A stretch of 32,000 nucleotides of DNA from Pyrodictium delaneyi. Its GTDB lineage: Archaea > Thermoproteota > Thermoprotei_A > Sulfolobales > Pyrodictiaceae. The notes beneath the pieces were generated by a model, which saw nothing but the letters and a program-made list of their open reading frames with translations, ran no database searches and was not told the DNA's origin. Of the stretch, positions 1 through 9,253 are shown one piece after another (the stretch's first letter is position 1; each line of letters opens with the position of its first letter). The stretch lies in NCBI RefSeq assembly GCF_001412615.1, contig NZ_CP013011.1, forward strand, positions 390,001 to 422,000. The letters run 5' to 3'. A program made the position numbers and the translations under genes.

Positions 1-175
1 GTAGGCGTCGAGGCGGCGATAAACGAGGGTCCCTAGTGGCTCGATATGATGTGCATCCTGCTAGACATACTAGGCACCGACTACAAGTTGCCAGTGCTTC
101 TCGTGCAATCTCCTCTGCCTCAGAGAGCATTGCTTGTAGGCCGCTTTGCCTAACCCCGGGCATCTTTAACGCCAT
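1..175 (-). CDS. Fe-S cluster-binding oxidoreductase (GlcF/HdrD/DsrK-like), N-terminal part only; the gene runs off the window start
   Basis: My own translation of the reverse strand from ATG at 175 (alternative ATG at 163) gives MALKMPGVRQSGLQAMLSEAEEIAREALATCSRCLVCLAGCTSYRATRDPRLSPPRRL. This contains a CX2CX2CX3C 4Fe-4S ferredoxin motif. The ORF is not in the supplied track because the window edge truncates it. Confidence 0.45.
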   Translation of the reverse strand, partial: MALKMPGVRQSGLQAMLSEAEEIAREALATCSRCLVCLAGCTSYRATRDPRLSPPRRL

Positions 176-294
176 GCTAATAACCCTGGAGGTTGCAGCC
201 TAAAACTAATCTATAGAGTGTATATCGCAAATTTTCAAAATAACACCTATAAAGCCGTTAACTATCACGGCCTCTCGGGAGGGATTAAATAAGG

Positions 295-936
295 ATGGTA
301 ATCGATGAGGCCGCATTACGCGCCGCTATAACCGACGCGCTGCTACGCTCTGCCGGCCTTCCAACTCTAGCCGATGTGAAGAAGATGCTCTCGGAAGCGG
401 AATCAAAAACCACAGTAACTATTGTTACCGACGATTCTAAGTACGGGAAGCACGGAGTCGATGTAGTTAGGAATCTCCTAACAGATTATGACTTTGTGGA
501 AATTAAGGTGCTCGAAAAGTCTAGTTGGCCAGAGGATTTACCTCCACCACTCATAGTTATTGGCGGCAAGCTTGAAGGTAGGCTACTATTCTACGGGGCA
601 CCGGTCGATATACTTTCACCTATGTTCATGCTTGCTGTCGCAGCGTCATGCGGAGCATGGAAGCCTAAGACCTGCAAGGATATTAGTGAAGCAAGAGGCC
701 GAGCAAGACTTTACGTTGTACCGGGTCTACCCTGTGCACGCGCGATATACAACTCTCTGCCCATCGTGTACTGCAGTAATGAGGCCGAGCTGGAAATAGT
801 AAACGTAGAGGCATTCTATACACTCAATAAACCGCTACCAGTAAAGCAAGTCCCCACCTTTGTATCACCAAGCGGCAAGAAGCATTCCTCGACACCTAGA
901 AGCGAGTTTGAGGTGCTCAAGTGGTGGCACAGCTAA
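295..936 (+). CDS. Protein-disulfide-oxidoreductase (PDO)/glutaredoxin-like protein with two thioredoxin-fold units, both CXXC sites lost
   Basis: 213-aa ORF with a TATA-like CCTATAAAG about 45 nt upstream and GGGAGGGA before the ATG. GRLLFYGAPVDILSPMFMLAV resembles the central GIRF-G-P-G-EF segment of archaeal PDOs, and RLYVVPGLPCARAIYNSL resembles the second-unit V-TPTCPYCPRAV segment. Only one Cys is retained (PCAR), and there is no CXXC in unit 1. Confidence 0.45.
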   Translation: MVIDEAALRAAITDALLRSAGLPTLADVKKMLSEAESKTTVTIVTDDSKYGKHGVDVVRNLLTDYDFVEIKVLEKSSWPEDLPPPLIVIGGKLEGRLLFYGAPVDILSPMFMLAVAASCGAWKPKTCKDISEARGRARLYVVPGLPCARAIYNSLPIVYCSNEAELEIVNVEAFYTLNKPLPVKQVPTFVSPSGKKHSSTPRSEFEVLKWWHS

Positions 937-1056
937 GCCTACGTAGATTATCTCTTTTAAATGTCTTATTTCGAATTGCTTGCAATAAACAGTTATAGGT
1001 AGAAGTAAACACCCGTAACATAAACTCACGGGGACCCCGAAAGTACGGCCCTACTG

Positions 1057-1064
1057 GAGGTGAA
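1057..1064 (+). promoter_or_regulatory. Shine-Dalgarno site (GGAGGTGA) for the TusA-like gene
   Basis: Exact GGAGGTGA lies 6 nt upstream of ATG 1071. A similar GAGGTG lies 10 nt upstream of TTG 1953. Confidence 0.55.
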
Positions 1065-1070
1065 CAGTTA

Positions 1071-1316
1071 ATGGCACGTGTAGAAGAGTTAGACCTTACA
1101 AAGCTGACTGCTCTCTGTGGCGACTTTAGTGTCCATGTACTCAGCAAGCTTGAGGGTCTTAAGTCGGGCGAGAGACTCGTGGTAAAGGTTAGGAAAGACG
1201 ACAAAGACCTACTAGAAGCTGCGGTCTCGGCTGTTAGGGATGCAGGTATCGCTAAGCCTGTAGGAGAAGGCGAGGAAGGAGAGATATTCTACGTGATACT
1301 AGAGAAGCAGAGGTGA
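1071..1316 (+). CDS. TusA/SirA-like small sulfur-carrier-fold protein (CPxP replaced by CGDF)
   Basis: 81 aa. LDLTKLTALCGDFSVHVLSKLEGLKSGERLVVKVRKDD matches the TusA pattern LD..GL.CP.P......L..L..GE.L.V..DD. The conserved Cys is present but the flanking prolines are absent. The stop overlaps the next start (GTGA at 1313-1316). Confidence 0.6.
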   Translation: MARVEELDLTKLTALCGDFSVHVLSKLEGLKSGERLVVKVRKDDKDLLEAAVSAVRDAGIAKPVGEGEEGEIFYVILEKQR

Positions 1317-1945
1317 CAGTCTCAATGATTTCTAACACCAGTTTACTTTCTTTCACAACTAATTATGGATTCATTGTACTTCTGATTGCTGCTCTAGCAC
1401 CCTTAGTATATGTCGGTATCTATGGCTCAGCTGGCTACCGGTTTGTCTACAGCACCATTGCCCGGCTTCTAAAGGTGATACCACAAGCATCAATGCTTGA
1501 TCACCCTTCGCCCCTAGTAGGGCTAGCTGCTGCTATACTTCACACGGGCGTCATACTAGCAGTCATCGCTCATCTAGTCCTCTTCGCTGCACAATGGAAT
1601 GGAGGCCTCTACCAGCTAACACCCTCTATAGTGCAGACTGTACTCTACGCGAAGAAGACTGCAGCCATCATGATAGTCTCTTCGGCGTCCATATTAGCTG
1701 CTACCAGGCTCTACACTGGCGTACGCTTCGGTCTATTCAGCTGGAAGCACGCATGCCTCCTCGCTGGAGACTTGCTTCTAATAGCACTCGCTGCTTCCGG
1801 TCTCCTCATAAAGGCTGGCATTAACTACGTGATAGCACACGTAATCCTTGGGTATGTTGCTATAGCGTATTTCCTGATAGCGTTCTTCACCGAACATCGG
1901 CTTTACTCCCGGGTCCTCGCCGAGAAGCGTATACTAGAGGTGTAA
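1313..1945 (+). CDS. NarI/DsrM/HdrE-like polytopic membrane protein, putative di-haem cytochrome b
   Basis: 210 aa with about 5 hydrophobic helices. His77 and His87 are 10 residues apart in one helix, and His176 and His195 are 19 apart. This resembles the NarI haem-ligand pattern (H56/H66 and H187/H205). The gene is translationally coupled to the TusA-like gene. Confidence 0.5.
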   Translation: MTVSMISNTSLLSFTTNYGFIVLLIAALAPLVYVGIYGSAGYRFVYSTIARLLKVIPQASMLDHPSPLVGLAAAILHTGVILAVIAHLVLFAAQWNGGLYQLTPSIVQTVLYAKKTAAIMIVSSASILAATRLYTGVRFGLFSWKHACLLAGDLLLIALAASGLLIKAGINYVIAHVILGYVAIAYFLIAFFTEHRLYSRVLAEKRILEV

Positions 1946-1952
1946 AGCCCCA

Positions 1953-2564
1953 TTGAAACCCAAGACATTAACTATCGCAGCGATAGGTCTTATTGCCGTA
2001 GCTCTGGCTACCTCAGCTCTACTGCTAGAGCACGAGTACATCGGCGGCAGCAGTGTAGAGGCGCCAGTATCTATAAGTGTCGAGAAAGGTAAGCCCGTAG
2101 AGGCGTCCACTATGACTAGTAGCGGGAATGGCCCCGGAGACCGAATCGTTATGATACTAGGCACAGAAAGTTGCCCACATTGCCGCGCCATGATAAGCTT
2201 CTTCAAGGAGAATTTCCCGGGCCGAGCATTCTTCTGCGAGATAGCTAACACTAACTCCACCTGCAGAGCTGCCTTCAGCTTCCTAGTGCGTGGCGGAGTA
2301 ACTATGGGCGTGCCAACTATGGTTGTCTGCGATAAGAGTAGGAGCATTGTTGAAGGGATAATCATCGGCGAGCTAAAGAACGTTACCTGGTGGCAAAAGG
2401 TCTTCGAGAACGGCGTCTCTGGCAGTAACGAAACAGTCATACCTGTATATGCAGGCGAGAAACCTATAGGCACTGTTAAGATAACACAAGGCAACATGAC
2501 TAATCTTTACGACTTACTCTGCAGTGCCACACTAGCCGACGCCCAAAAGTTAGGAAGCCAATAG
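1953..2564 (+). CDS. Membrane-anchored extracytoplasmic thioredoxin/DsbA-like thiol:disulfide oxidoreductase (CPHC active site)
   Basis: TTG start with GAGGTG SD. N-terminal signal-anchor KTLTIAAIGLIAVALATSALLL. Thioredoxin-fold core IVMILGTESCPHCRAMISFF ... GVPTMVV. Confidence 0.75.
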   Translation: MKPKTLTIAAIGLIAVALATSALLLEHEYIGGSSVEAPVSISVEKGKPVEASTMTSSGNGPGDRIVMILGTESCPHCRAMISFFKENFPGRAFFCEIANTNSTCRAAFSFLVRGGVTMGVPTMVVCDKSRSIVEGIIIGELKNVTWWQKVFENGVSGSNETVIPVYAGEKPIGTVKITQGNMTNLYDLLCSATLADAQKLGSQ

Positions 2565-2592
2565 ACATAGACTCTTAGAATGGTGAAAGATC

Positions 2593-3255
2593 TTGACGGG
2601 GATTTTGGCCAAGCTTTTTGGACTAGCTGCATTGGATAGTATAAACCCTTGTACGTTCTACATCTACACAGTCCTGCTTCTCTCAGTCTCAATACGGGAG
2701 AAGAGTAGCCGGGCGGTACTAGCCACGGGTCTAGCATTCATAGCGGGCGTCTACCTTGGCTACTTGGCGCTGGGCCTCGGCATAGCAAGCGCTGTAGCAG
2801 TGCTCCCCACATGGCTTCTCGCACTAGCAGCCGCAGTCTACGGCGTCTACATCATAGTGGCTGGGCTCTACGAGTTACGGGGCAGGAGGCGTCCCGGCCC
2901 CCAGAGGCCTGGTGGGAGACTCGCGCCGAGGGCTCTGCGCACAGCTAGCCGGGTAGGCGCGTTCGGGTTAGGCTTGTTGCTCTCATTTACACTATTGCCA
3001 TGCAGCGGCGGCCCTCTCGTAGCATTCATAGCACTAGCGAGTGCCGAGGGCTATAGTGGCCTTCTAGTACTCCCCTTGTTGCTACTCTACAATCTAGTCT
3101 TCGTGGCCCCACTTATAGCAATAGGACTAGCAGCAGCTGCGGCCTACCGTGTCGAAAGAGTACAGCAAGCCATAGCTCGCGCCGCACCATACGCCTCCAT
3201 AGCAGCTGGACTAGCGCTCATAGCAGTAGCAGTATACATATACATCGCTTACTAA
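2593..3255 (+). CDS. ccdA: CcdA/DsbD-family transmembrane thiol-disulfide electron transporter
   Basis: 220 aa, polytopic. Both family-defining membrane cysteines are present (LDSINPCTFYIY in TM1 and LLPCSGGPLVAF in TM4). TTG start. Confidence 0.8.
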   Translation: MTGILAKLFGLAALDSINPCTFYIYTVLLLSVSIREKSSRAVLATGLAFIAGVYLGYLALGLGIASAVAVLPTWLLALAAAVYGVYIIVAGLYELRGRRRPGPQRPGGRLAPRALRTASRVGAFGLGLLLSFTLLPCSGGPLVAFIALASAEGYSGLLVLPLLLLYNLVFVAPLIAIGLAAAAAYRVERVQQAIARAAPYASIAAGLALIAVAVYIYIAY

Positions 3256-3313: not shown

Positions 3314-3601
3314 CTAGTATACGACCTTATAGCGGCGGCCTTGTAGCCGCCCTACAAGCGCTTCATACTCCTGCCGACGCAGTACGGTCACTATCTCTAC
3401 AACTCTGCCGCGTGCAGCATACACTACAGCTATTTCATTCGAACCGAGGGCAAGATAGACATCATTCTCCTCGTCATAGACTATCTGCACAGGGTCCTCT
3501 AGAGCCTCTATAACTTCATCTAGGCTGACCCTTCTCTCTTCCATTCTTTCCCGTGCATGTTTCGATACATGTAGACTGTAAAGCGGCGATAGCACCACCA
3601 T
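3314..3601 (-). CDS. DUF4258-family toxin-like protein
   Basis: HVSKHARERMEERRVSLDEVIEAL ... VVEIVTVL matches the DUF4258 signature (H...R..eR.i....v). I place the start at the internal ATG (3601). The track ORF, which runs to 3697, would overlap the SDR gene and adds a non-protein-like N-terminus. Confidence 0.6.
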   Translation of the reverse strand: MVVLSPLYSLHVSKHARERMEERRVSLDEVIEALEDPVQIVYDEENDVYLALGSNEIAVVYAARGRVVEIVTVLRRQEYEALVGRLQGRRYKVVY

Positions 3602-3686
3602 TGTTACCCCTCTACTAGACCTAATATAACCGTAGTAGCAGTTATTGATGGTAAGAGGGAGTCCATAGAGAACAGTACGCTTGCAA

Positions 3687-4547
3687 TTATGCTGCAAAGC
3701 GGCCGGCGTTTATGCTGAGTACGTGGCCAGTTATAGCACGGGAGGCGGGAGTTGCCAGGAAGTAGACCGCCTCTGCAACATCCTCAGGCTGTATTATCAT
3801 GCGGAGAGGGTGTAGCTCTTCTATCTTCTTTCTTTTCTCAGGAGTATCCAGGAACATTTGTACCATATCAGTCTCAACGAAGCTAGGCGCTACTGCGTTG
3901 ACACGTATCCCGTACTTAGCTAGCTCTACTGCGAGGCGACGGGTGAGTCCTATTACGCCAGCCTTTGAGGCCGCATAGACAGCTGAGGCCGCTACATTTC
4001 CTGTTTGCCCCGCTATGCTGGCAAGGTTTACTATGCTGGCCCAGGGCGCCCTCTTAAGCATCGGGAGAAATGTCTTTGTGACCAGGAAGACTCCGGTAAG
4101 ATTGACCCGTATCACGTGTTCCCAGTCCTCAAGGGTTGTCTCCTCGATACCTCCCACGTGGAATACGCCAGCGTTATTGACTAGTACATTGAGGTAGGGC
4201 CACTCTGCCTCAAGGCGGTGGTAGGCTTTTTCCACGCTATCCGGGCTAGACACGTCTAGCTGGAGCACGATAGTCTCTGGGGCGCCTAGACGGCGAGCCC
4301 TTTCCGCAACCTCGAGGGCCTGGTCACGTTTACTATGGTAGGTGATTGCCACCGCGTAGCCTTCAGCAGCGAAGCGGAGCACTATCGCCCTGCCTATGCC
4401 GCGGCTTGCCCCAGTGACGAGCACGTAGCCTGCCGGCTTCCCCTCGCGTTCAGCTTCTACACCAGCTGCGAGTCTAGCATGATTTAGTATCGGTGTCTGG
4501 ACAGCCATACCCTTCCACCAGCCCTTCGTCTCTACAGCTGGCTCCAT
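3687..4547 (-). CDS. Short-chain dehydrogenase/reductase (FabG-like 3-oxoacyl reductase family)
   Basis: VLVTGASRGIGRAI (TGxxxGxG), NNAG, and the catalytic YAASKAG (YxxxK). The true start may be the internal ATG at 4508 (MAVQTP...). Confidence 0.9.
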   Translation of the reverse strand: MEPAVETKGWWKGMAVQTPILNHARLAAGVEAEREGKPAGYVLVTGASRGIGRAIVLRFAAEGYAVAITYHSKRDQALEVAERARRLGAPETIVLQLDVSSPDSVEKAYHRLEAEWPYLNVLVNNAGVFHVGGIEETTLEDWEHVIRVNLTGVFLVTKTFLPMLKRAPWASIVNLASIAGQTGNVAASAVYAASKAGVIGLTRRLAVELAKYGIRVNAVAPSFVETDMVQMFLDTPEKRKKIEELHPLRMIIQPEDVAEAVYFLATPASRAITGHVLSINAGRFAA

Positions 4548-5397: not shown

Positions 5398-6828
5398 CTA
5401 CTCTATGTGTTCGCCAATGTAGGCGGCGATATGCCTTACCTGTATCTTGAGGCCGTATAGCTGCGAGCCTCCAGCGATGGAGTGCATACACACCGGACAC
5501 GCCGTTACTACGATTTCCGCTCCGCTCTTCTTGACGTCGTCTATCTTCCTCTTTACTGCTATCGACCAGTGCTCTGCAGTCTTCTTTATGAACTCAAGCT
5601 CCTTGTCGCTTGCTACTAGGTCCTTGCTCGAGACACCTAGCAGCTTACCCATCTGCTCTAGCATCTCCATGTTCATACAGCCTATACCGCCTCCGCCGCC
5701 ACAACAGTAGCTCTCAGCACCGTGGTGTGGTAGTTTGCGGAAGCCCTTGCTCGCCGCGCTCAGCACGAAGTTTGGCTCCTCGGTTACACCACCACGGCGT
5801 GCTAGCTGGCATGGGTCGTGCCAGGTGACCTTATCGTCGGTCTGGCGCAGCTTTAGCTTGCCCTCTTTGATTAGCTTCTCAAACAGCTCTACTATGTGTA
5901 GCACCCGGTAGCTGGGCCGGCGGCCTAGCGCCTTGGGCATCTGGAACCGTAGCCAGGGGTAGACGAAGCCACCATCAAGGAGTACCACATTCTTAGGTTC
6001 GTACTTGGATATGTCCTCGTCGAGTATCTTTATCATCTCCTTGGCTTGCTTTTGGAGACCTATTACCGCTGCTATTGGCGGACGGAAAGCTAGTGGCTTG
6101 CTTGGCAGTGTCCAGTCCAGCCCAGCCCGGTCTAGCGCCCTCATAGCACCTATTACCGCGTCTGGATAGAACATTGCATCCGCCATGTTTACTAGTAGGA
6201 AGTACTCGGCGCCCTTCTTGTCGAAAGGCAGCGGTTTACCTAGCGCCTGTTCTGCCTTCTTCATTACCTCGTTCCAGATGTACATGAAGCTTGGTATCTC
6301 TAGGAAGAGCTTCTTGCGCTCAATTACATCGAAGACAGCTATTAGTGTAGGCGCACGACCAGTCTTGGTGGCAATACTGCCTAGTATGCCTTTTATTATG
6401 AGGCCGCTGTCTATGCCGAAGGGGCAGGATACATAGCAGGCGCCACAGTTTGTACAGCGATAGACTGCTTCGACAATCTCGTCGAGGTCCTTCTCGCTTT
6501 GAGGCTTCTTGGCGTTGAGCAGTGGGCCTAGTAGCTTACCGAGTATAGTGCCCTCCTTTCTATACATGTAGCGTGCCAGCTCAGCCTTCTCTACAGGCCC
6601 ATACTTCTCGGAGACGTAGTAGTAGGGGCAGGCGGGTGCACATGCTGCACAGCCTACACAGTTCTCAAGGAAGTGTAACTTCACGGAGTCTAGTGCTGAT
6701 AGTGCCTCGGCAAGAGCCTTTTCGAGTTTGTCTGCCGGGAACCCTTCCCATGATATGTTACGTTTGACCTCTTCAAGTAGCTGCTTTACTGCGGGACTTG
6801 GAGCCATCTGTTCCATCTCATCCACCAC
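5398..6828 (-). CDS. isp2: Isp2: HdrD/DsrK/GlpC-like Fe-S protein with CCG domains (hydrogenase-associated)
   Basis: Two 4Fe-4S motifs (CVGCAACAPACP, CTNCGACYVSCP) and cysteine-rich CCG-type motifs (HDPCQLARRGG; ESYCCGGGGGIGC; ACPVCMHS). Its position after hynS-isp1 matches the Thiocapsa-type hynS-isp1-isp2 order. Confidence 0.85.
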   Translation of the reverse strand: MVDEMEQMAPSPAVKQLLEEVKRNISWEGFPADKLEKALAEALSALDSVKLHFLENCVGCAACAPACPYYYVSEKYGPVEKAELARYMYRKEGTILGKLLGPLLNAKKPQSEKDLDEIVEAVYRCTNCGACYVSCPFGIDSGLIIKGILGSIATKTGRAPTLIAVFDVIERKKLFLEIPSFMYIWNEVMKKAEQALGKPLPFDKKGAEYFLLVNMADAMFYPDAVIGAMRALDRAGLDWTLPSKPLAFRPPIAAVIGLQKQAKEMIKILDEDISKYEPKNVVLLDGGFVYPWLRFQMPKALGRRPSYRVLHIVELFEKLIKEGKLKLRQTDDKVTWHDPCQLARRGGVTEEPNFVLSAASKGFRKLPHHGAESYCCGGGGGIGCMNMEMLEQMGKLLGVSSKDLVASDKELEFIKKTAEHWSIAVKRKIDDVKKSGAEIVVTACPVCMHSIAGGSQLYGLKIQVRHIAAYIGEHIE

Positions 6829-6871
6829 CCCTAGTCAAGCGTGACGGGAAGTACCTTGTGAAACTCGGGGG

Positions 6872-7684
6872 TTAGACAAGACCTTTCTGTACACGTAGAT
6901 CGTACCATTCGTGGAGCTTGCCGTACCAGTAGCCAAAGACTATGTGCCAATACTTGCTGAATGGTAGCAGCATTAGTAGTACCTCGGCGCCGAGTATGTG
7001 TAAACCTAGTACTGTTCTATAGGTGCCAACATCCATTGTTACAGTACCAGTAGAGTGGCGAGCAGCCATGTAGCCGGTCAGCAGTATGAATAGTAGCAAG
7101 CCTAGAGAGAAGTAATCACTCCATCTCACATGGCGCAGGCCATGTATTTGCTCCATTACCTTAGTACCTATCTTAAACGCTGTACCGAGTATTGCTAGTA
7201 TAGCTAGTACATCACCATTCAGTACTACTGTTAGCGGCCCCCAGATACTGTCGACAAACTTTACCTCTATTGGTGATGTTATCGTGAGTGTTGATGTTGT
7301 AACACTTAACGGTATCCATAGCCCAGTTTCAGCTATTATCTTGTATGGGCTGAACCAGTAAGCGAAGAACGCCACGTGGTGGGCTAGCAGGAATATTAGC
7401 GGTATCACGCCTACAAGGTGCAGTGCCACCATACCCGCTAGGAAGTCGTGGGGCTTCGTCTTAATGCTGAATATTATCGGGTCTACAAATGTCCTTATCA
7501 ACCCTATAATCCATGCTCCTACGCCACGGTTACGCGGCTCGGCCTTTACCACACGGCGCCAGAAGAGCACCATCTTAGCTATCCTGTAGACTGCGCCGAA
7601 TGCAAATACAGCTATTGCTACCCAGAAGAAGTAGTATACTGCAAAGCTGTAGACATCCGTGACACTACCGCCTAAATATCCCAT
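6872..7684 (-). CDS. isp1: Isp1: NarI/HdrE-like integral membrane b-type cytochrome subunit
   Basis: 270 aa, polytopic, with intramembrane His residues (LHLVGVIPLIFLLAHH; LGLHILG; YWHIVFG). Lies between hynS and the HdrD-like gene. SD GGTGAGGTGAC at 7691-7701. Confidence 0.7.
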   Translation of the reverse strand: MGYLGGSVTDVYSFAVYYFFWVAIAVFAFGAVYRIAKMVLFWRRVVKAEPRNRGVGAWIIGLIRTFVDPIIFSIKTKPHDFLAGMVALHLVGVIPLIFLLAHHVAFFAYWFSPYKIIAETGLWIPLSVTTSTLTITSPIEVKFVDSIWGPLTVVLNGDVLAILAILGTAFKIGTKVMEQIHGLRHVRWSDYFSLGLLLFILLTGYMAARHSTGTVTMDVGTYRTVLGLHILGAEVLLMLLPFSKYWHIVFGYWYGKLHEWYDLRVQKGLV

Positions 7685-7690
7685 TAATTC

Positions 7691-7701
7691 GTCACCTCAC
7701 C
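7691..7701 (-). promoter_or_regulatory. Shine-Dalgarno site for isp1
   Basis: The reverse complement reads GGTGAGGTGAC and ends 6 nt before ATG 7684. Confidence 0.5.
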
Positions 7702-7822
7702 TTCTACTTTTACGTTTCCGGCTAACAGACTACAATGATCGTATACCCTTAGTGTATCAGACCCTTACTATCCCATATTTAGTTACAAAAATTAAGTGTT
7801 CTTAATACGTAATTAATCGTGG

Positions 7823-9253
7823 TTAGGCGCGTGTCTGCTCCTCCTTAGCCTTTTCAGCCTTTTTCTCAACCATCTTGGATACTCCGTAAGCTACAGCTGC
7901 GCCAGCAACGGCAGCGACAGCAGCACTGGCTGCAGTAGATGCTGTGCTAGGCGTCGTTGGAGCTTGTAGAGGCTTATAGAAGCCTTCAAAGCTGTCGCTG
8001 AAGCCGGGCATCGTACAGCCTATACACACGCCACCCGCTCTTGTCGGGCCACCCACACCCTCGACCCATCCAACCTTGTTCCATGGACAGTTGCTGATTG
8101 GACCCTTACAACCTACAGCGAACAGACACTTATAGTCCGGATCGCCAGGCTCCTTCCTAAAGTCGCCAGCAGCGTAGCTTCCCGCCCTGGGGCATTGTTC
8201 ATGTACCGTTGGACCAAAGATGTACTTTGGCCTCCAATACTGGTCTAGTTCAGGCAATGGTAGTAGACCCTTGGCCCATAGTATGAGATTTGCTATGACG
8301 CGAAGCTGACCATTACCGTTGGCAGGGCATCCTGGCACGGATACCGCAGGACGACAATCGGGCCTAATTTCGCCAGGCTTTAAGGAGCAACGACCGTAGA
8401 CGAAGTTACGGAATGGTTCTGCTTCTTCGAGAAGGTCTACTAGGCCTTTGAAGCCCCTAACGGGATCAGGGAAGAAGCCAACTGCGCCGGTAGGGCTAGC
8501 ACTCCAGCCCTTACCAGTCCAAGTCTGGAATAGGTCGTATCCTAGTTTCTTCATGAAATCTACTTCTACAACCTTGTTTGCCGGTATACCGCCATAGCAT
8601 GCACAGTTACCAACAGATATTACTGCTACGGCTCGTGGTAGGAGGCGGCGCATCCACTCTGTACATGTTATTGGTTTGCCGTTCTCCTCGCCTATATAAC
8701 AGAAGTAGTCGCTATGCGGCGGTCCACCCGCCTTTTCATCTATGGGGAAACTACCTTCAAGTACAAGCACGAATGGGTCGAGTTTACCCTGTTCGGCGAG
8801 CTTTAGTATATCAATTGGGCTTGTGAGGAGGAGACCTGGGTTATAACCTAGGTCTAGGAATGCTTTCAATGTCTTCTTGAGTGGATCGTCATCAGGGAGT
8901 TTCTCTACGAGAGCGGCCAGCTCCTCCGGGCTCATTTCGACGAGCTTCTTGACGTACTCGGGTGTCTCTTCGCCCCAGCTAAGCATCACAGTCTCGTGGA
9001 ATAGGAGCTTAACTGTACCAGGACCAGCTATATGGCTATAACCACCAAGTACCTCAACTAGGTCAGGCTTAGTAGCCTGGATTAATGCCGTAGTATTGCC
9101 AGCACAATCTTGTGCCTCAAACCATACAATGTTTATACCACCCGACTTAACCTCAGCTATTGCTTTCTTTATCAGCTCGTCCCAGTTGAGGCTGGCAAAG
9201 AATGCTGCCGTTCCTGTGAGCTTTAGGAAGTCTCTACGGGAGAGCTGGACCAT
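7823..9253 (-). CDS. hynS: Membrane-bound group-1 [NiFe]-hydrogenase small subunit with Tat signal and C-terminal membrane anchor
   Basis: Twin-arginine signal MVQLSRRDFLKLTG. Small-subunit motifs VGNCACYGG, PGCPANG, HEQCPR, CLFAVGCKGPISNCPWN and GGVCIGCTMPGF. C-terminal hydrophobic AAVAAVAGAAVAYGV followed by a Lys/Glu tail. Confidence 0.95.
   Translation of the reverse strand: MVQLSRRDFLKLTGTAAFFASLNWDELIKKAIAEVKSGGINIVWFEAQDCAGNTTALIQATKPDLVEVLGGYSHIAGPGTVKLLFHETVMLSWGEETPEYVKKLVEMSPEELAALVEKLPDDDPLKKTLKAFLDLGYNPGLLLTSPIDILKLAEQGKLDPFVLVLEGSFPIDEKAGGPPHSDYFCYIGEENGKPITCTEWMRRLLPRAVAVISVGNCACYGGIPANKVVEVDFMKKLGYDLFQTWTGKGWSASPTGAVGFFPDPVRGFKGLVDLLEEAEPFRNFVYGRCSLKPGEIRPDCRPAVSVPGCPANGNGQLRVIANLILWAKGLLPLPELDQYWRPKYIFGPTVHEQCPRAGSYAAGDFRKEPGDPDYKCLFAVGCKGPISNCPWNKVGWVEGVGGPTRAGGVCIGCTMPGFSDSFEGFYKPLQAPTTPSTASTAASAAVAAVAGAAVAYGVSKMVEKKAEKAKEEQTRA

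What the first reader, a model, noticed from the sequence alone, without database searches (positions are those of the whole stretch)
1..3255. Compact thiol/sulfur-redox gene cluster 2 kb from the hydrogenase Isp module
A co-directional, tightly packed set (gaps of -4, 7 and 28 nt) encodes four proteins. They are a TusA-like carrier, a NarI-like membrane protein, an extracytoplasmic CPHC thioredoxin with a signal anchor, and CcdA/DsbD. A CXXC-less PDO-like gene precedes the set, and a divergently transcribed Fe-S (CX2CX2CX3C) protein lies further upstream. Together with Isp1/Isp2 (homologues of DsrM/DsrK) the window therefore contains two NarI-like plus HdrD-like type modules. This combination would suit a route from H2/quinol to cytoplasmic persulfide/disulfide carriers and, via CcdA, to an extracytoplasmic thiol oxidoreductase. 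That link is a hypothesis, not something shown by the sequence.
Basis: inference. Interest (0 to 1): 0.6.

Follow-up and report, generated by a model that had tools for sequence, protein, structure and literature searches.

The report
Membrane thiol-redox relay in Pyrodictium
Two conserved gene modules sit side by side here: an iron-sulfur enzyme with a new four-histidine membrane partner and two small cysteine carriers, and an exported thioredoxin with its membrane electron shuttle; together they probably carry thiol/disulfide redox power across the membrane of these hyperthermophilic archaea, which lack the usual disulfide-forming enzymes.

Summary
The five co-directional ORFs and the divergent Fe-S gene are real and conserved. 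The genome length equals that published for Pyrodictium delaneyi Su06.

Gene calls:
- TusA-like: supported (hhalign 95.8%; motif CGD, not CPxP).
- PDO-like: supported (AF2 pLDDT 95; Foldseek hits AhpF-NTD and archaeal PDOs); only Cys147 is invariant.
- Trx: has CPHC, a cis-Pro block and a signal anchor.
- CcdA-like: DsbD-superfamily lead, but it fails Pfam DsbD_TM.
- Fe-S gene: DsrK/HmcF/HdrD-type with one complete CCG domain, not GlcF.
- "NarI-like": architecture only (5 TM, four invariant His). No homology to Isp1/DsrM was detectable. It is a tiny family specific to Pyrodictiaceae.

Synteny splits the cluster into two modules:
- Module A is HdrD-like <> (PDO-like) TusA-like + 4-His protein, found in at least 8 genera.
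- Module B is Trx + CcdA-like, adjacent or fused, found in 87 of 151 genomes of the order.

Module B is nearly exclusive with VKOR and uncorrelated with Ccm. The two modules are merged only in Pyrodictium and one related genome.

Adjacency to hynS-isp1-isp2 holds only within Pyrodictium.

Best reading is a quinone-linked thiol:disulfide relay, probably oxidative and replacing VKOR/DsbB. Its direction is unproven.

The parts
2..175 (-). N-terminal 58 codons of the HdrD/DsrK-like Fe-S protein. The complete gene is 402 aa and runs upstream of the window to G000:388967. By gene order it is Pyrde_0384.
   Evidence: Pfam Fer4_8 5.7e-10 and CCG 2e-6 on the full protein. NCBIfam best hits are HmcF 7.6e-18 and DsrK 1.2e-13, all below cut-off. 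Orthologues occur in 14 or more genomes of the family.
176..294 (.). Divergent intergenic region (119 nt) between the HdrD-like and PDO-like genes. It has A+T-rich TATA-like boxes and a GGAGGG motif before the ATG at 295.
   Evidence: Read directly from the sequence. Promoter function is inferred, not tested.
295..936 (+). PDO-like / AhpF-N-terminal-domain-like protein made of two thioredoxin-fold units. Unit 1 has no Cys. Unit 2 has C147-x-x-A. C127 and C160 are conserved only in some genera. By gene order it is Pyrde_0385.
   Evidence: AF2 pLDDT 95.2. Foldseek: 6il7 7e-9, 1a8l 4.7e-8, 1j08, 2ayt, 2hls. Invariant residues are C147 and V186-P187. The family has 17 clusters, two of them with PF13192.
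1071..1316 (+). TusA-like 81-aa protein with a single invariant Cys16 in a CGD[FYP] motif. It is preceded by a 134-nt spacer with TATA-like and GGAGGTGA motifs.
   Evidence: hhalign against genuine TusA proteins of relatives: 95.8%, E 7e-9, with Cys16 aligned on the TusA CPxP Cys. Pfam TusA does not match it. The spacer was read.
1313..1945 (+). Membrane protein of 206-210 aa (likely start ATG 1325). It has 5 TM helices, N-terminus out and C-terminus in, with four invariant His: HX9H in TM2 and HX16-18H in TM5. It is a candidate di-haem b anchor and belongs to a new small family.
   Evidence: Invariant His in alignments. Only 8 clusters in 5.8e9 proteins and 12 representatives in 1.84e9. Only Pyrodictiaceae genomes among 301 of the class have it, nine of the ten matches next to the HdrD-like gene (the tenth starts its contig). 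No homology to Isp1 or DsrM-like domains was found.
1953..2564 (+). Signal-anchored extracytoplasmic thioredoxin-fold protein. The active site is CPHC, with a cis-Pro block GVPT and four further invariant Cys (95, 104, 126, 190).
   Evidence: Alignment. PDB profile hits to thioredoxin (3hz4, 0.0025) and weakly to DsbA. N-terminal hydrophobic segment 1-19. In other genera it is fused to the CcdA-like protein.
2593..3255 (+). CcdA/DsbD-superfamily membrane protein with one Cys in each of two PC motifs (NPC, LPCSGGP).
   Evidence: Alignment. ESM Atlas scores 0.96-0.91 to clusters that carry DsbD_TM, DsbD_2 or SfLAP. NCBIfam ArsG-family match 1.9e-6 over the full length. No Pfam DsbD_TM match. Present in 87 of 151 genomes of the order.

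Best explanation
The locus joins two conserved modules.

Module A is cytoplasmic and membrane-bound. It comprises an HdrD/DsrK-like CCG iron-sulfur protein, a 4-His five-helix membrane protein (inferred to bind two haems b and to talk to the quinone pool, as HdrE, DsrM and NarI do), a TusA-like one-Cys carrier and a PDO-like one-Cys double-thioredoxin protein.

Module B is a CcdA-like transmembrane thiol/disulfide shuttle with a signal-anchored CPHC thioredoxin on the outside.

Inferred mechanism: the outer thioredoxin exchanges disulfides with exported proteins. The CcdA-like protein carries the two electrons across the membrane to the PDO-like and TusA-like cysteines. The HdrD-like enzyme interconverts their (hetero)disulfide and thiols, with the 4-His protein linking it to quinone. 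I think the net direction is most likely oxidative, with electrons flowing inward to quinone. That would be a split functional substitute for VKOR/DsbB in organisms that lack both.

Shown: gene identities, synteny, fusion and phyletic patterns. Inferred: haem binding, the quinone link, which proteins touch each other, and the direction.
For: Module A is conserved. HdrD-like orthologues have a divergent TusA-like (CGD) gene beside them, with or without a PDO-like gene; a 4-His protein lies next to it in six (G046, G014, G112, G132, G493, and a 135-aa fragment in G075) but was not found in G084. This holds in G046, G014, G075, G132, G084, G112 and G493, as well as in Pyrodictium and G098. The 4-His family occurs only there.

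Module B is conserved. Trx and the CcdA-like protein are adjacent or fused in one ORF.

The modules are linked in three different arrangements: merged in Pyrodictium and G098, PDO-like-TusA-like-Trx-CcdA in genus g5, and a PDO-like copy at each module in G046.

Evidence on direction:
- CPHC (the DsbA dipeptide) occurs in 7 of 11 fusions outside the family and in Pyrodictium, Hyperthermus, g5 and Pyrolobus.
- No VKOR, DsbB or DsbD_TM was found in G000.
- The CcdA-like protein and VKOR were found in 87 and 38 of 151 genomes, with both in only 2.
- Within genus g3, the three VKOR genomes lack the HdrD-like gene, and the three HdrD-like genomes lack VKOR.
- The outer Trx has four extra invariant Cys.

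From established redox potentials (my own knowledge), electron flow from a dithiol to menaquinone is downhill, whereas quinol to a thioredoxin-type disulfide is uphill.

The PDO-like and HdrD-like proteins are both made in vivo (PMC8105010 Tables S1 and S3).
Against: Every characterised DsbD/CcdA/ScsB protein moves electrons outward, not inward. The exclusivity with VKOR follows a few deep lineage splits and could reflect aerobic versus anaerobic lifestyle rather than equal function. The 4-His protein shows no detectable homology to any haem protein, and its AF2 model is only middling (pLDDT 69). Most CcdA-like + Trx systems outside Pyrodictiaceae have no module A or PDO-like neighbour, so module A is not generally required. 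A 134-nt spacer with promoter-like motifs separates the PDO-like gene from the rest. In proteomics the PDO-like protein rises on ferrihydrite but the HdrD-like protein does not. No physical interaction has been shown.
Confidence: 0.4

Rival explanations
1. Reductive relay. Quinol, ultimately from H2 through HynS-Isp1-Isp2, reduces the 4-His protein and the HdrD-like enzyme. That enzyme reduces disulfides or persulfides on the TusA-like and PDO-like proteins. The CcdA-like protein then passes the reducing power to the outer thioredoxin.
For: All studied CcdA/DsbD systems work outward (established knowledge). HdrDE and DsrMK reduce their substrates with membrane-derived electrons. The locus lies 2 kb from isp2 in three Pyrodictium species. 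The PDO-like protein (Pyrde_0385) rises together with HynL and HynS on ferrihydrite compared with nitrate.
Against: Adjacency to the hydrogenase is confined to one genus. The active site is CPHC, not a reductase-type dipeptide. Quinol is a weak reductant for thioredoxin-type disulfides (my own knowledge). The system excludes VKOR rather than co-occurring with an oxidase. It is not tied to cytochrome c maturation, the classic client. HdrD-like, Isp1 and Isp2 abundances do not follow the PDO-like protein.
Confidence: 0.2
2. Module A is a sulfane-sulfur system analogous to DsrC with DsrMK. The TusA-like Cys carries a persulfide or trisulfide, and the HdrD-like/4-His complex reduces or forms it with the quinone pool. 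The Trx-CcdA pair next door is a separate housekeeping system.
For: The TusA superfamily comprises sulfur carriers, and the invariant Cys aligns with the TusA active Cys. The best family matches of the Fe-S protein are HmcF, DsrK and TmcB. Module A and module B lie apart in the genomes matching Hyperthermus and Pyrolobus. Several hosts respire sulfur compounds (my own knowledge).
Against: The CPxP motif is replaced by CGD in all members. No DsrE, rhodanese or other sulfurtransferase was seen in the ORFs read at any of the loci. The module is present in P. delaneyi, whose genome paper (PMC5556600) calls it an iron and nitrate reducer. The TusA-like and PDO-like genes sit directly in front of Trx-CcdA in g5, which has no module A there. 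That is hard to explain if the carriers have nothing to do with module B.
Confidence: 0.2
3. The thiol-reduction arm of cytochrome c maturation: the CcdA-like protein with a ResA/CcmG-like Trx keeps apocytochrome CXXCH motifs reduced for the many multihaem cytochromes of this organism.
For: G000 encodes cytochromes with 13, 8 (five proteins) and other numbers of haem motifs, as well as CcmF and CcmC homologues. In the genome matching Pyrolobus, a TusA-like + PDO-like pair lies next to a CcmF-like gene. This is the textbook role of CcdA.
Against: The phyletic patterns do not match. Families f2, f4, f7 and f10 carry the CcdA-like gene in 61 of 62 genomes and Ccm in none. Ignicoccus-type f9 has Ccm in 6 of 6 and the CcdA-like gene in none. 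The ccm genes of G000 are about 95 kb or more away. CPHC is not a ResA/CcmG-type site.
Confidence: 0.05

Closest known systems
HdrDE of Methanosarcina; DsrMK(JOP) with DsrC; HmcEF/TmcBC of sulfate reducers
   Same: A cytoplasmic CCG-domain Fe-S subunit (two ferredoxin-type CX2CX2CX3C motifs plus a CCG site) is encoded beside a small membrane protein of five or so helices. That membrane protein has two His on an early helix and two on the last helix. A small Cys-bearing carrier or substrate is also encoded nearby.
   Different: The membrane subunit shows no detectable sequence relationship to DsrM, HmcE or Isp1, whereas Isp1 from the same window does in the same test. The Fe-S protein scores far below every family cut-off. 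The presumed substrates are a TusA-like and a PDO-like protein, not CoM-S-S-CoB or DsrC. In some genomes the module is merged with a CcdA-like/Trx export arm.
CcdA/DsbD with ResA/CcmG/TlpA-type outer thioredoxins (bacterial reductive pathways)
   Same: A membrane protein with one essential-looking Cys in each of two PC motifs is paired or fused with a membrane-anchored extracytoplasmic thioredoxin fold.
   Different: It fails Pfam DsbD_TM. The outer site is CPHC. It is not correlated with Ccm. In Pyrodictiaceae the cytoplasmic neighbour is a one-Cys PDO-like protein instead of a CXXC thioredoxin.
DsbA-DsbB and DsbA/VKOR oxidative folding
   Same: A CPHC outer thioredoxin fold. A proposed link to quinone. 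A nearly complementary distribution with VKOR in this order.
   Different: There is no DsbB or VKOR homologue. The quinone link would run through four separate proteins, including a cytoplasmic Fe-S enzyme. Nothing here has been shown biochemically.
Archaeal PDO (P. furiosus 1a8l, A. pernix 2hls) and the AhpF N-terminal domain
   Same: Two tandem thioredoxin-fold units (Foldseek E 7e-9 to 4e-6, TM about 0.7). As in AhpF-NTD, only the second unit is redox-active.
   Different: There is no CXXC anywhere: the second unit has C-x-x-A. It is not matched by TIGR02187, which finds the genuine PDO elsewhere in the genome. The family is restricted to Pyrodictiaceae and Ignicoccus.
TusA (PF01206)
   Same: Length and profile similarity over 70 columns, with the Cys at the active-site position.
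   Different: CGD[FYP] replaces CPxP. It falls below Pfam detection. A canonical TusA exists elsewhere in the genome.

Membership tests
TusA (PF01206) | Match to the family profile at Pfam's gathering score | tested here: not met
   There was no Pfam hit at E<=0.1. A whole-genome PF01206 scan finds other loci (750955) but not this gene.
TusA (PF01206) | Profile-profile similarity over the whole domain, with Cys at the active-site position | tested here: met
   hhalign of A14 against A8: probability 95.8%, E 7e-9, 70 columns, with Cys16 aligned on the CPxP Cys.
TusA (PF01206) | CPxP active-site motif | tested here: not met
   The motif is CGD[FYPIL] in 11 of 12 members and CAN in one.
NarI / DsrM / HdrE / Isp1 membrane cytochrome b (PF02665 and relatives) | Detectable sequence homology | tested here: not met
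   Pfam and NCBIfam gave no hit. The PF02665 genome scan misses it. hhalign against Isp1 and against 12 DsrM-like domains gave probability below 1%, while the Isp1 control gave 91.6%.
NarI / DsrM / HdrE / Isp1 membrane cytochrome b (PF02665 and relatives) | Five TM helices, N-terminus out and C-terminus in, with two His 10 residues apart on TM2 and two His about 18 apart on TM5 | tested here: met
   H73, H83, H172 and H191 are conserved in every full-length member read (in two rows, P0027 and P0028, the TM5 His are misaligned in A17, so this rests on reading the sequences). The spacings are 10 and 17-19. Lys+Arg counts per loop of 0/4/1/3/1/3 fit N-out, C-in. Isp1 in this window has spacings of 10 and 18 (read).
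NarI / DsrM / HdrE / Isp1 membrane cytochrome b (PF02665 and relatives) | Shared fold | tested here: inconclusive
   The AF2 model has pLDDT 69. The best Foldseek hits are STEAP at E 0.3. VIA-align gives Z up to 10.9 for generic helical bundles, STEAP1, CcmC and CcmF.
NarI / DsrM / HdrE / Isp1 membrane cytochrome b (PF02665 and relatives) | Binds two haems b and reacts with quinol | not testable with these tools
   This needs purification and spectroscopy.
CcdA / DsbD (PF02683 DsbD_TM) | Match to the Pfam profile | tested here: not met
   There was no match in the whole genome at E<=1, while 11 of 14 control genomes matched. The protein itself also has no DsbD_2 hit.
CcdA / DsbD (PF02683 DsbD_TM) | One conserved Cys in each of two membrane-embedded PC motifs | tested here: met
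   NPC (Cys20) and LPCSGGP (Cys137) are invariant and are kept across the order.
CcdA / DsbD (PF02683 DsbD_TM) | Works with an extracytoplasmic thioredoxin-fold partner | tested here: met
   The Trx gene is adjacent in Pyrodictium, g3, g4 and g5. It is fused in one ORF in the genome matching Pyrolobus, in G112 and in 11 of 16 loci of other families. This shows genomic association only.
CcdA / DsbD (PF02683 DsbD_TM) | Superfamily relationship by other means | tested here: inconclusive
   ESM Atlas scores of 0.96-0.91 to clusters with DsbD_TM, DsbD_2 or SfLAP. NCBIfam ArsG-family match 1.9e-6 over the full length but below cut-off. The PDB profile search did not find CcdA.
Thioredoxin fold / DsbA-like oxidase | CXXC plus a cis-Pro loop, and an export or anchor signal | tested here: met
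   CPHC and GVPT are invariant. There is an N-terminal hydrophobic segment at 1-19. The PDB profile hits thioredoxin 3hz4 at 0.0025.
Thioredoxin fold / DsbA-like oxidase | DsbA helical insertion domain and an oxidising redox potential | not tested
DsbA hits were weak (E 0.12-0.31).
Archaeal PDO (TIGR02187) / AhpF N-terminal domain | Two tandem thioredoxin-fold units | tested here: met
   AF2 pLDDT 95.2, pTM 0.91. Foldseek: 6il7 7e-9, 1zyn, 1a8l 4.7e-8, 1j08, 2ayt, 2hls, 4mnn.
Archaeal PDO (TIGR02187) / AhpF N-terminal domain | CXXC active site(s) and a family profile match | tested here: not met
   There is no CXXC. Only C147-x-x-A is invariant. TIGR02187 finds G000:1662144 (216.6 bits) but not this gene.
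HdrD / DsrK / HmcF CCG-domain Fe-S proteins | Two CX2CX2CX3C ferredoxin motifs plus a CCG domain | tested here: met
   Fer4_8 5.7e-10 and CCG 2e-6 at residues 286-372. Read from the sequence: C31/34/37/41, C81/84/87/91, and C292...C324-C325-G...C366-x-x-C369. The first CCG repeat is degenerate.
HdrD / DsrK / HmcF CCG-domain Fe-S proteins | Reaches the curated cut-off of a named equivalog (DsrK, HmcF, TmcB, GlcF) | tested here: not met
   HmcF scored 64.5 bits against a cut-off of 750. DsrK scored 50.5 against 400. GlcF scored 36 against 333 and matched the N-terminal ferredoxin part only.

The most novel reading that the evidence does not exclude
Anaerobic hyperthermophilic Crenarchaeota that lack VKOR and DsbB make extracytoplasmic disulfides by running a CcdA-like shuttle 'backwards': a CPHC thioredoxin outside passes electrons inward. 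In Pyrodictiaceae a previously unrecognised complex dumps these electrons into the quinone pool. That complex comprises a DsrK-like CCG enzyme, a new four-His membrane protein family, and a heterodisulfide formed between a TusA-like and a one-Cys PDO-like protein.
Probability: 0.3. Interest if true: 0.8.

Novelty: new variant of a known kind. Interest (0 to 1): 0.6.

Why it matters
How hyperthermophilic archaea without VKOR or DsbB handle disulfides in exported proteins is an open question. This work yields a concrete candidate system that can be tested gene by gene. It also defines a new membrane partner family for HdrD/DsrK-type enzymes, which would extend that enzyme class from small-molecule and DsrC substrates to protein-cysteine carriers of the TusA and PDO folds. 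Finally, it corrects the tempting idea that this cluster belongs to the hydrogenase Isp system.

Tried and rejected
1. Cytochrome c maturation role. This was suggested by the CcmF neighbour in the Pyrolobus-size genome and by the many cytochromes of G000. I rejected it on phyletic grounds.

2. Homology of the 4-His protein to NarI, Isp1 or DsrM. It was not found with Pfam, NCBIfam or three hhalign runs that included a positive control.

3. Fold searches of the 4-His model (Foldseek pdb, VIA-align wide). They returned only generic helical bundles and weak STEAP, CcmC and CcmF rows, which is inconclusive.

4. Sequence-profile searches of the PDB. They gave nothing for the TusA-like, 4-His, PDO-like and CcdA-like proteins.

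5. The first single-sequence genome search for the 4-His protein understated its range. It missed Hyperthermus- and Pyrolobus-type copies that were later found by reading loci and with a profile.

7. RNA evidence. No RNA holder was listed.

8. GlcF reading of the Fe-S gene. Only the ferredoxin part matches GlcF, and the neighbours are a YbjQ-like gene and an RNA ligase, not glcD/E.

Full report
**Source of the window.** The window is G000:C1:390001-422000 of a single 2,023,836-bp contig. That length equals the published size of the complete genome of Pyrodictium delaneyi Su06 (PMC5556600). Database names of close relatives point the same way: Pyrodictium occultum, P. abyssi, Pyrolobus fumarii 1A and Ignicoccus hospitalis. 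The gene order RNA ligase / Fe-S oxidoreductase / ... / Fe-S oxidoreductase (Isp2) / HynS matches locus tags Pyrde_0382, 0384, 0393 and 0395 in a proteomics paper (PMC8105010). The locus-tag numbers I give to the genes in between are inferred from gene order.

**The observation.** The Fe-S gene cut by the window edge is complete in the genome: 402 aa, with two CX2CX2CX3C motifs and a CCG domain. The whole arrangement is RNA ligase-YbjQ-like-HdrD-like <> PDO-like-TusA-like-membrane protein-Trx-CcdA-like. It is kept in two other Pyrodictium species and in a genome of another genus, G098. Identities to the window proteins are:
- CcdA-like: 86/74/53%
- HdrD-like: 80/59/52%
- PDO-like: 76/55/46%
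- TusA-like: 73/55/55%
- Trx: 52/48/36%
- membrane protein: 54/39/29%

These are real genes under selection. One detail needs correcting: the -4 overlap depends on a GTG start. Database copies begin at the ATG 12 nt later (206 aa), and the overlap is not conserved.

**What each protein is.** Pfam and NCBIfam are silent on four of the six.
- *TusA-like.* A profile of 12 family members matches a profile of genuine TusA proteins from relatives at 95.8% probability (E 7e-9). The one invariant Cys falls on the TusA active-site Cys, but the motif is CGD, not CPxP. A canonical TusA lies elsewhere in the genome.
- *PDO-like.* AlphaFold2 gives a confident model (pLDDT 95.2). Foldseek finds the AhpF N-terminal domain and the archaeal and Aquifex PDOs (E 7e-9 to 4e-6, TM about 0.7). 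The genuine PDO is a different gene.
- *Trx.* CPHC, a GVPT cis-Pro block, four more invariant Cys and an N-terminal anchor are present.
- *CcdA-like.* It has two PC-motif cysteines and language-model similarity of 0.96-0.91 to DsbD-clan clusters. There is no Pfam DsbD_TM match anywhere in the genome. I file it in the superfamily, not the Pfam family.
- *Fe-S protein.* The best partial matches are HmcF, DsrK and TmcB. The GlcF match covers the ferredoxin part only. One CCG repeat is complete and the first is degenerate, as I recall for DsrK.
- *Membrane protein.* It is not detectably related to NarI, DsrM or Isp1. Three hhalign comparisons gave probabilities below 1%, whereas Isp1 of this window scored 91.6% against the same DsrM-like target. 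Fold searches were inconclusive. What it does share is architecture. It has five helices with N-terminus out and C-terminus in. It also has four invariant His, HX9H on TM2 and HX16-18H on TM5. Isp1 shows the same pattern, with spacings of 10 and 18. The family is tiny: 8 clusters in 5.8 billion proteins and about 10 credible representatives in 1.84 billion.

**Synteny splits the cluster into two modules.**
- *Module A.* Orthologues of the HdrD-like gene exist in most Pyrodictiaceae genera. A TusA-like CGD gene lies divergently beside them, often with a PDO-like gene and a 4-His membrane gene. This is seen in G046 (size of Hyperthermus butylicus), G014 (Pyrolobus fumarii), G075, G132, G084, G112 and G493. 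A profile search of 301 genomes of the class found the 4-His protein in 10 genomes, all Pyrodictiaceae. Nine of the ten are within about 1.2 kb of the HdrD-like gene; the tenth starts at a contig end.
- *Module B.* The CcdA-like gene is present in 87 of 151 genomes of the order. The Trx gene always lies next to it in Pyrodictiaceae. It is fused to it in one ORF in the Pyrolobus-size genome, in G112 and in 11 of 16 loci sampled from other families. Three more of those loci have a Trx gene adjacent.
- *Links between A and B.* They are merged in Pyrodictium and G098. In genus g5 the order is PDO-like-TusA-like-Trx-CcdA, without the HdrD-like or 4-His genes. G046 has a PDO-like copy at each module. 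In G112 the two modules are 1.6 kb apart. I take the repeated but differently arranged linkage as the best evidence that the PDO-like and TusA-like carriers connect the two modules. It remains an inference.

**Hydrogenase link.** The cluster is near hynS-isp1-isp2 only in the three Pyrodictium genomes. In G098 the contig ends before this can be judged. In the Hyperthermus-, Pyrolobus- and g5-type genomes no Isp or HynS homologue lies near either module. In the window, a DUF4258 toxin-like gene, an SDR and a YdjM-like gene on mixed strands lie in between. Published proteomics show that Pyrde_0385 (the PDO-like protein by gene order) is more abundant on ferrihydrite than on nitrate (padj 8e-9). 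HynL and HynS behave the same way. The HdrD-like protein, Isp2 and Isp1 do not change significantly. That is weak, partial co-variation, not evidence for a pathway.

**Function.** I first suspected cytochrome c maturation, given the many multihaem cytochromes and Ccm genes in G000 and a CcmF neighbour in the Pyrolobus-size genome. The phyletic test rejects this. Four families carry the CcdA-like gene in 61 of 62 genomes with no Ccm at all. Ignicoccus-type genomes have Ccm in 6 of 6 and no CcdA-like gene.

In contrast, the CcdA-like gene and VKOR are almost mutually exclusive: 87 and 38 of 151 genomes, with both in only two. G000 has no VKOR, DsbB or DsbD_TM. Within genus g3, the three VKOR genomes lack the HdrD-like gene. 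The three genomes with the HdrD-like gene lack VKOR, although two of those three are incomplete.

The outer active site is CPHC, the DsbA dipeptide, in most members. From known midpoint potentials (my own knowledge), dithiol to menaquinone is downhill and the reverse is not. Together these points favour an oxidative, inward electron flow that replaces VKOR/DsbB.

Several cautions apply:
- Kinship inflates the exclusivity, which rests on only a handful of independent transitions.
- Aerobic versus anaerobic lifestyle is a confounder.
- Every characterised CcdA/DsbD works in the other direction.

I therefore put the oxidative relay at about 0.4, the reductive relay at 0.2, a DsrC-like sulfane-sulfur role for module A alone at 0.2, and cytochrome c maturation at 0.05.

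**Novelty.** The parts belong to known superfamilies and the logic resembles HdrDE and DsrMK-DsrC. Three things are new:
- a lineage-specific 4-His membrane family as the partner of a DsrK-like enzyme;
- a CGD-type TusA-like protein and a one-Cys PDO-like protein as its probable substrates;
- the coupling of these to a CcdA-like/Trx export arm.

Four full-text literature searches found no description of this system.

Noticed in passing
G000:C1:433862-435991 (-), about 12 kb beyond the window end; locus L057: A 709-aa protein fuses a DsrM/NarI-like membrane domain (PF02665, 20.7 bits) to an HdrD-like domain. It also has an N-terminal CXXCH motif. Similar proteins of about 700 aa occur in several families of the order. 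It is probably Pyrde_0431, the 'monoheme Fe-S oxidoreductase' reported as more abundant in nitrate-grown cells (PMC8105010).
   Followed up: partly
window 5398-9253 (-): hynS-isp1-isp2 has no large-subunit gene beside it. The proteomics paper places HynL at Pyrde_0647, far away. Isp1 does match DsrM-like domains (hhalign 91.6%).
   Followed up: partly
L082:6237-7634 (+) (G014), L094:7457-9103 (-) (G112), and L109-L124: Single ORFs of 386-548 aa fuse a signal-anchored thioredoxin domain to the CcdA-like domain. The active site is mostly CPHC, with CPAC, CPYC, CGSC, CHSC and CEFC also seen. This fusion family is common in VKOR-lacking families of the order and appears to be uncharacterised.
   Followed up: partly
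L019:8069-12195 (G014): A second TusA-like (motif CAN) + PDO-like pair lies directly upstream of a 1031-aa CcmF-like gene (WGGYWAWDPVE).
   Followed up: partly
L095:7252-7893 (+) (G046): The PDO-like copy beside the HdrD-like gene is listed as an open frame of only 131 aa, although the tblastn match continues to 7893. This suggests a possible frameshift, an in-frame stop or a sequencing error.
   Followed up: no
L094:5854-7194 (-) (G112): A 446-aa polytopic membrane protein with a C-terminal CXXCH motif lies between the TusA-like gene and the Trx-CcdA fusion.
   Followed up: no
window 3314-3697 (-): A DUF4258 / BrnT-like toxin-fold ORF (Pfam 2.6e-8) lies immediately after the CcdA-like gene. 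It is conserved in the three Pyrodictium genomes.
   Followed up: no
L020:9060-10844 (G020, size of Ignicoccus hospitalis): The PDO-like gene is divergent from the Pab1020-type RNA ligase gene. This looks like a remnant of the Pyrodictium arrangement, without the HdrD-like, TusA-like, Trx or CcdA-like genes.
   Followed up: partly
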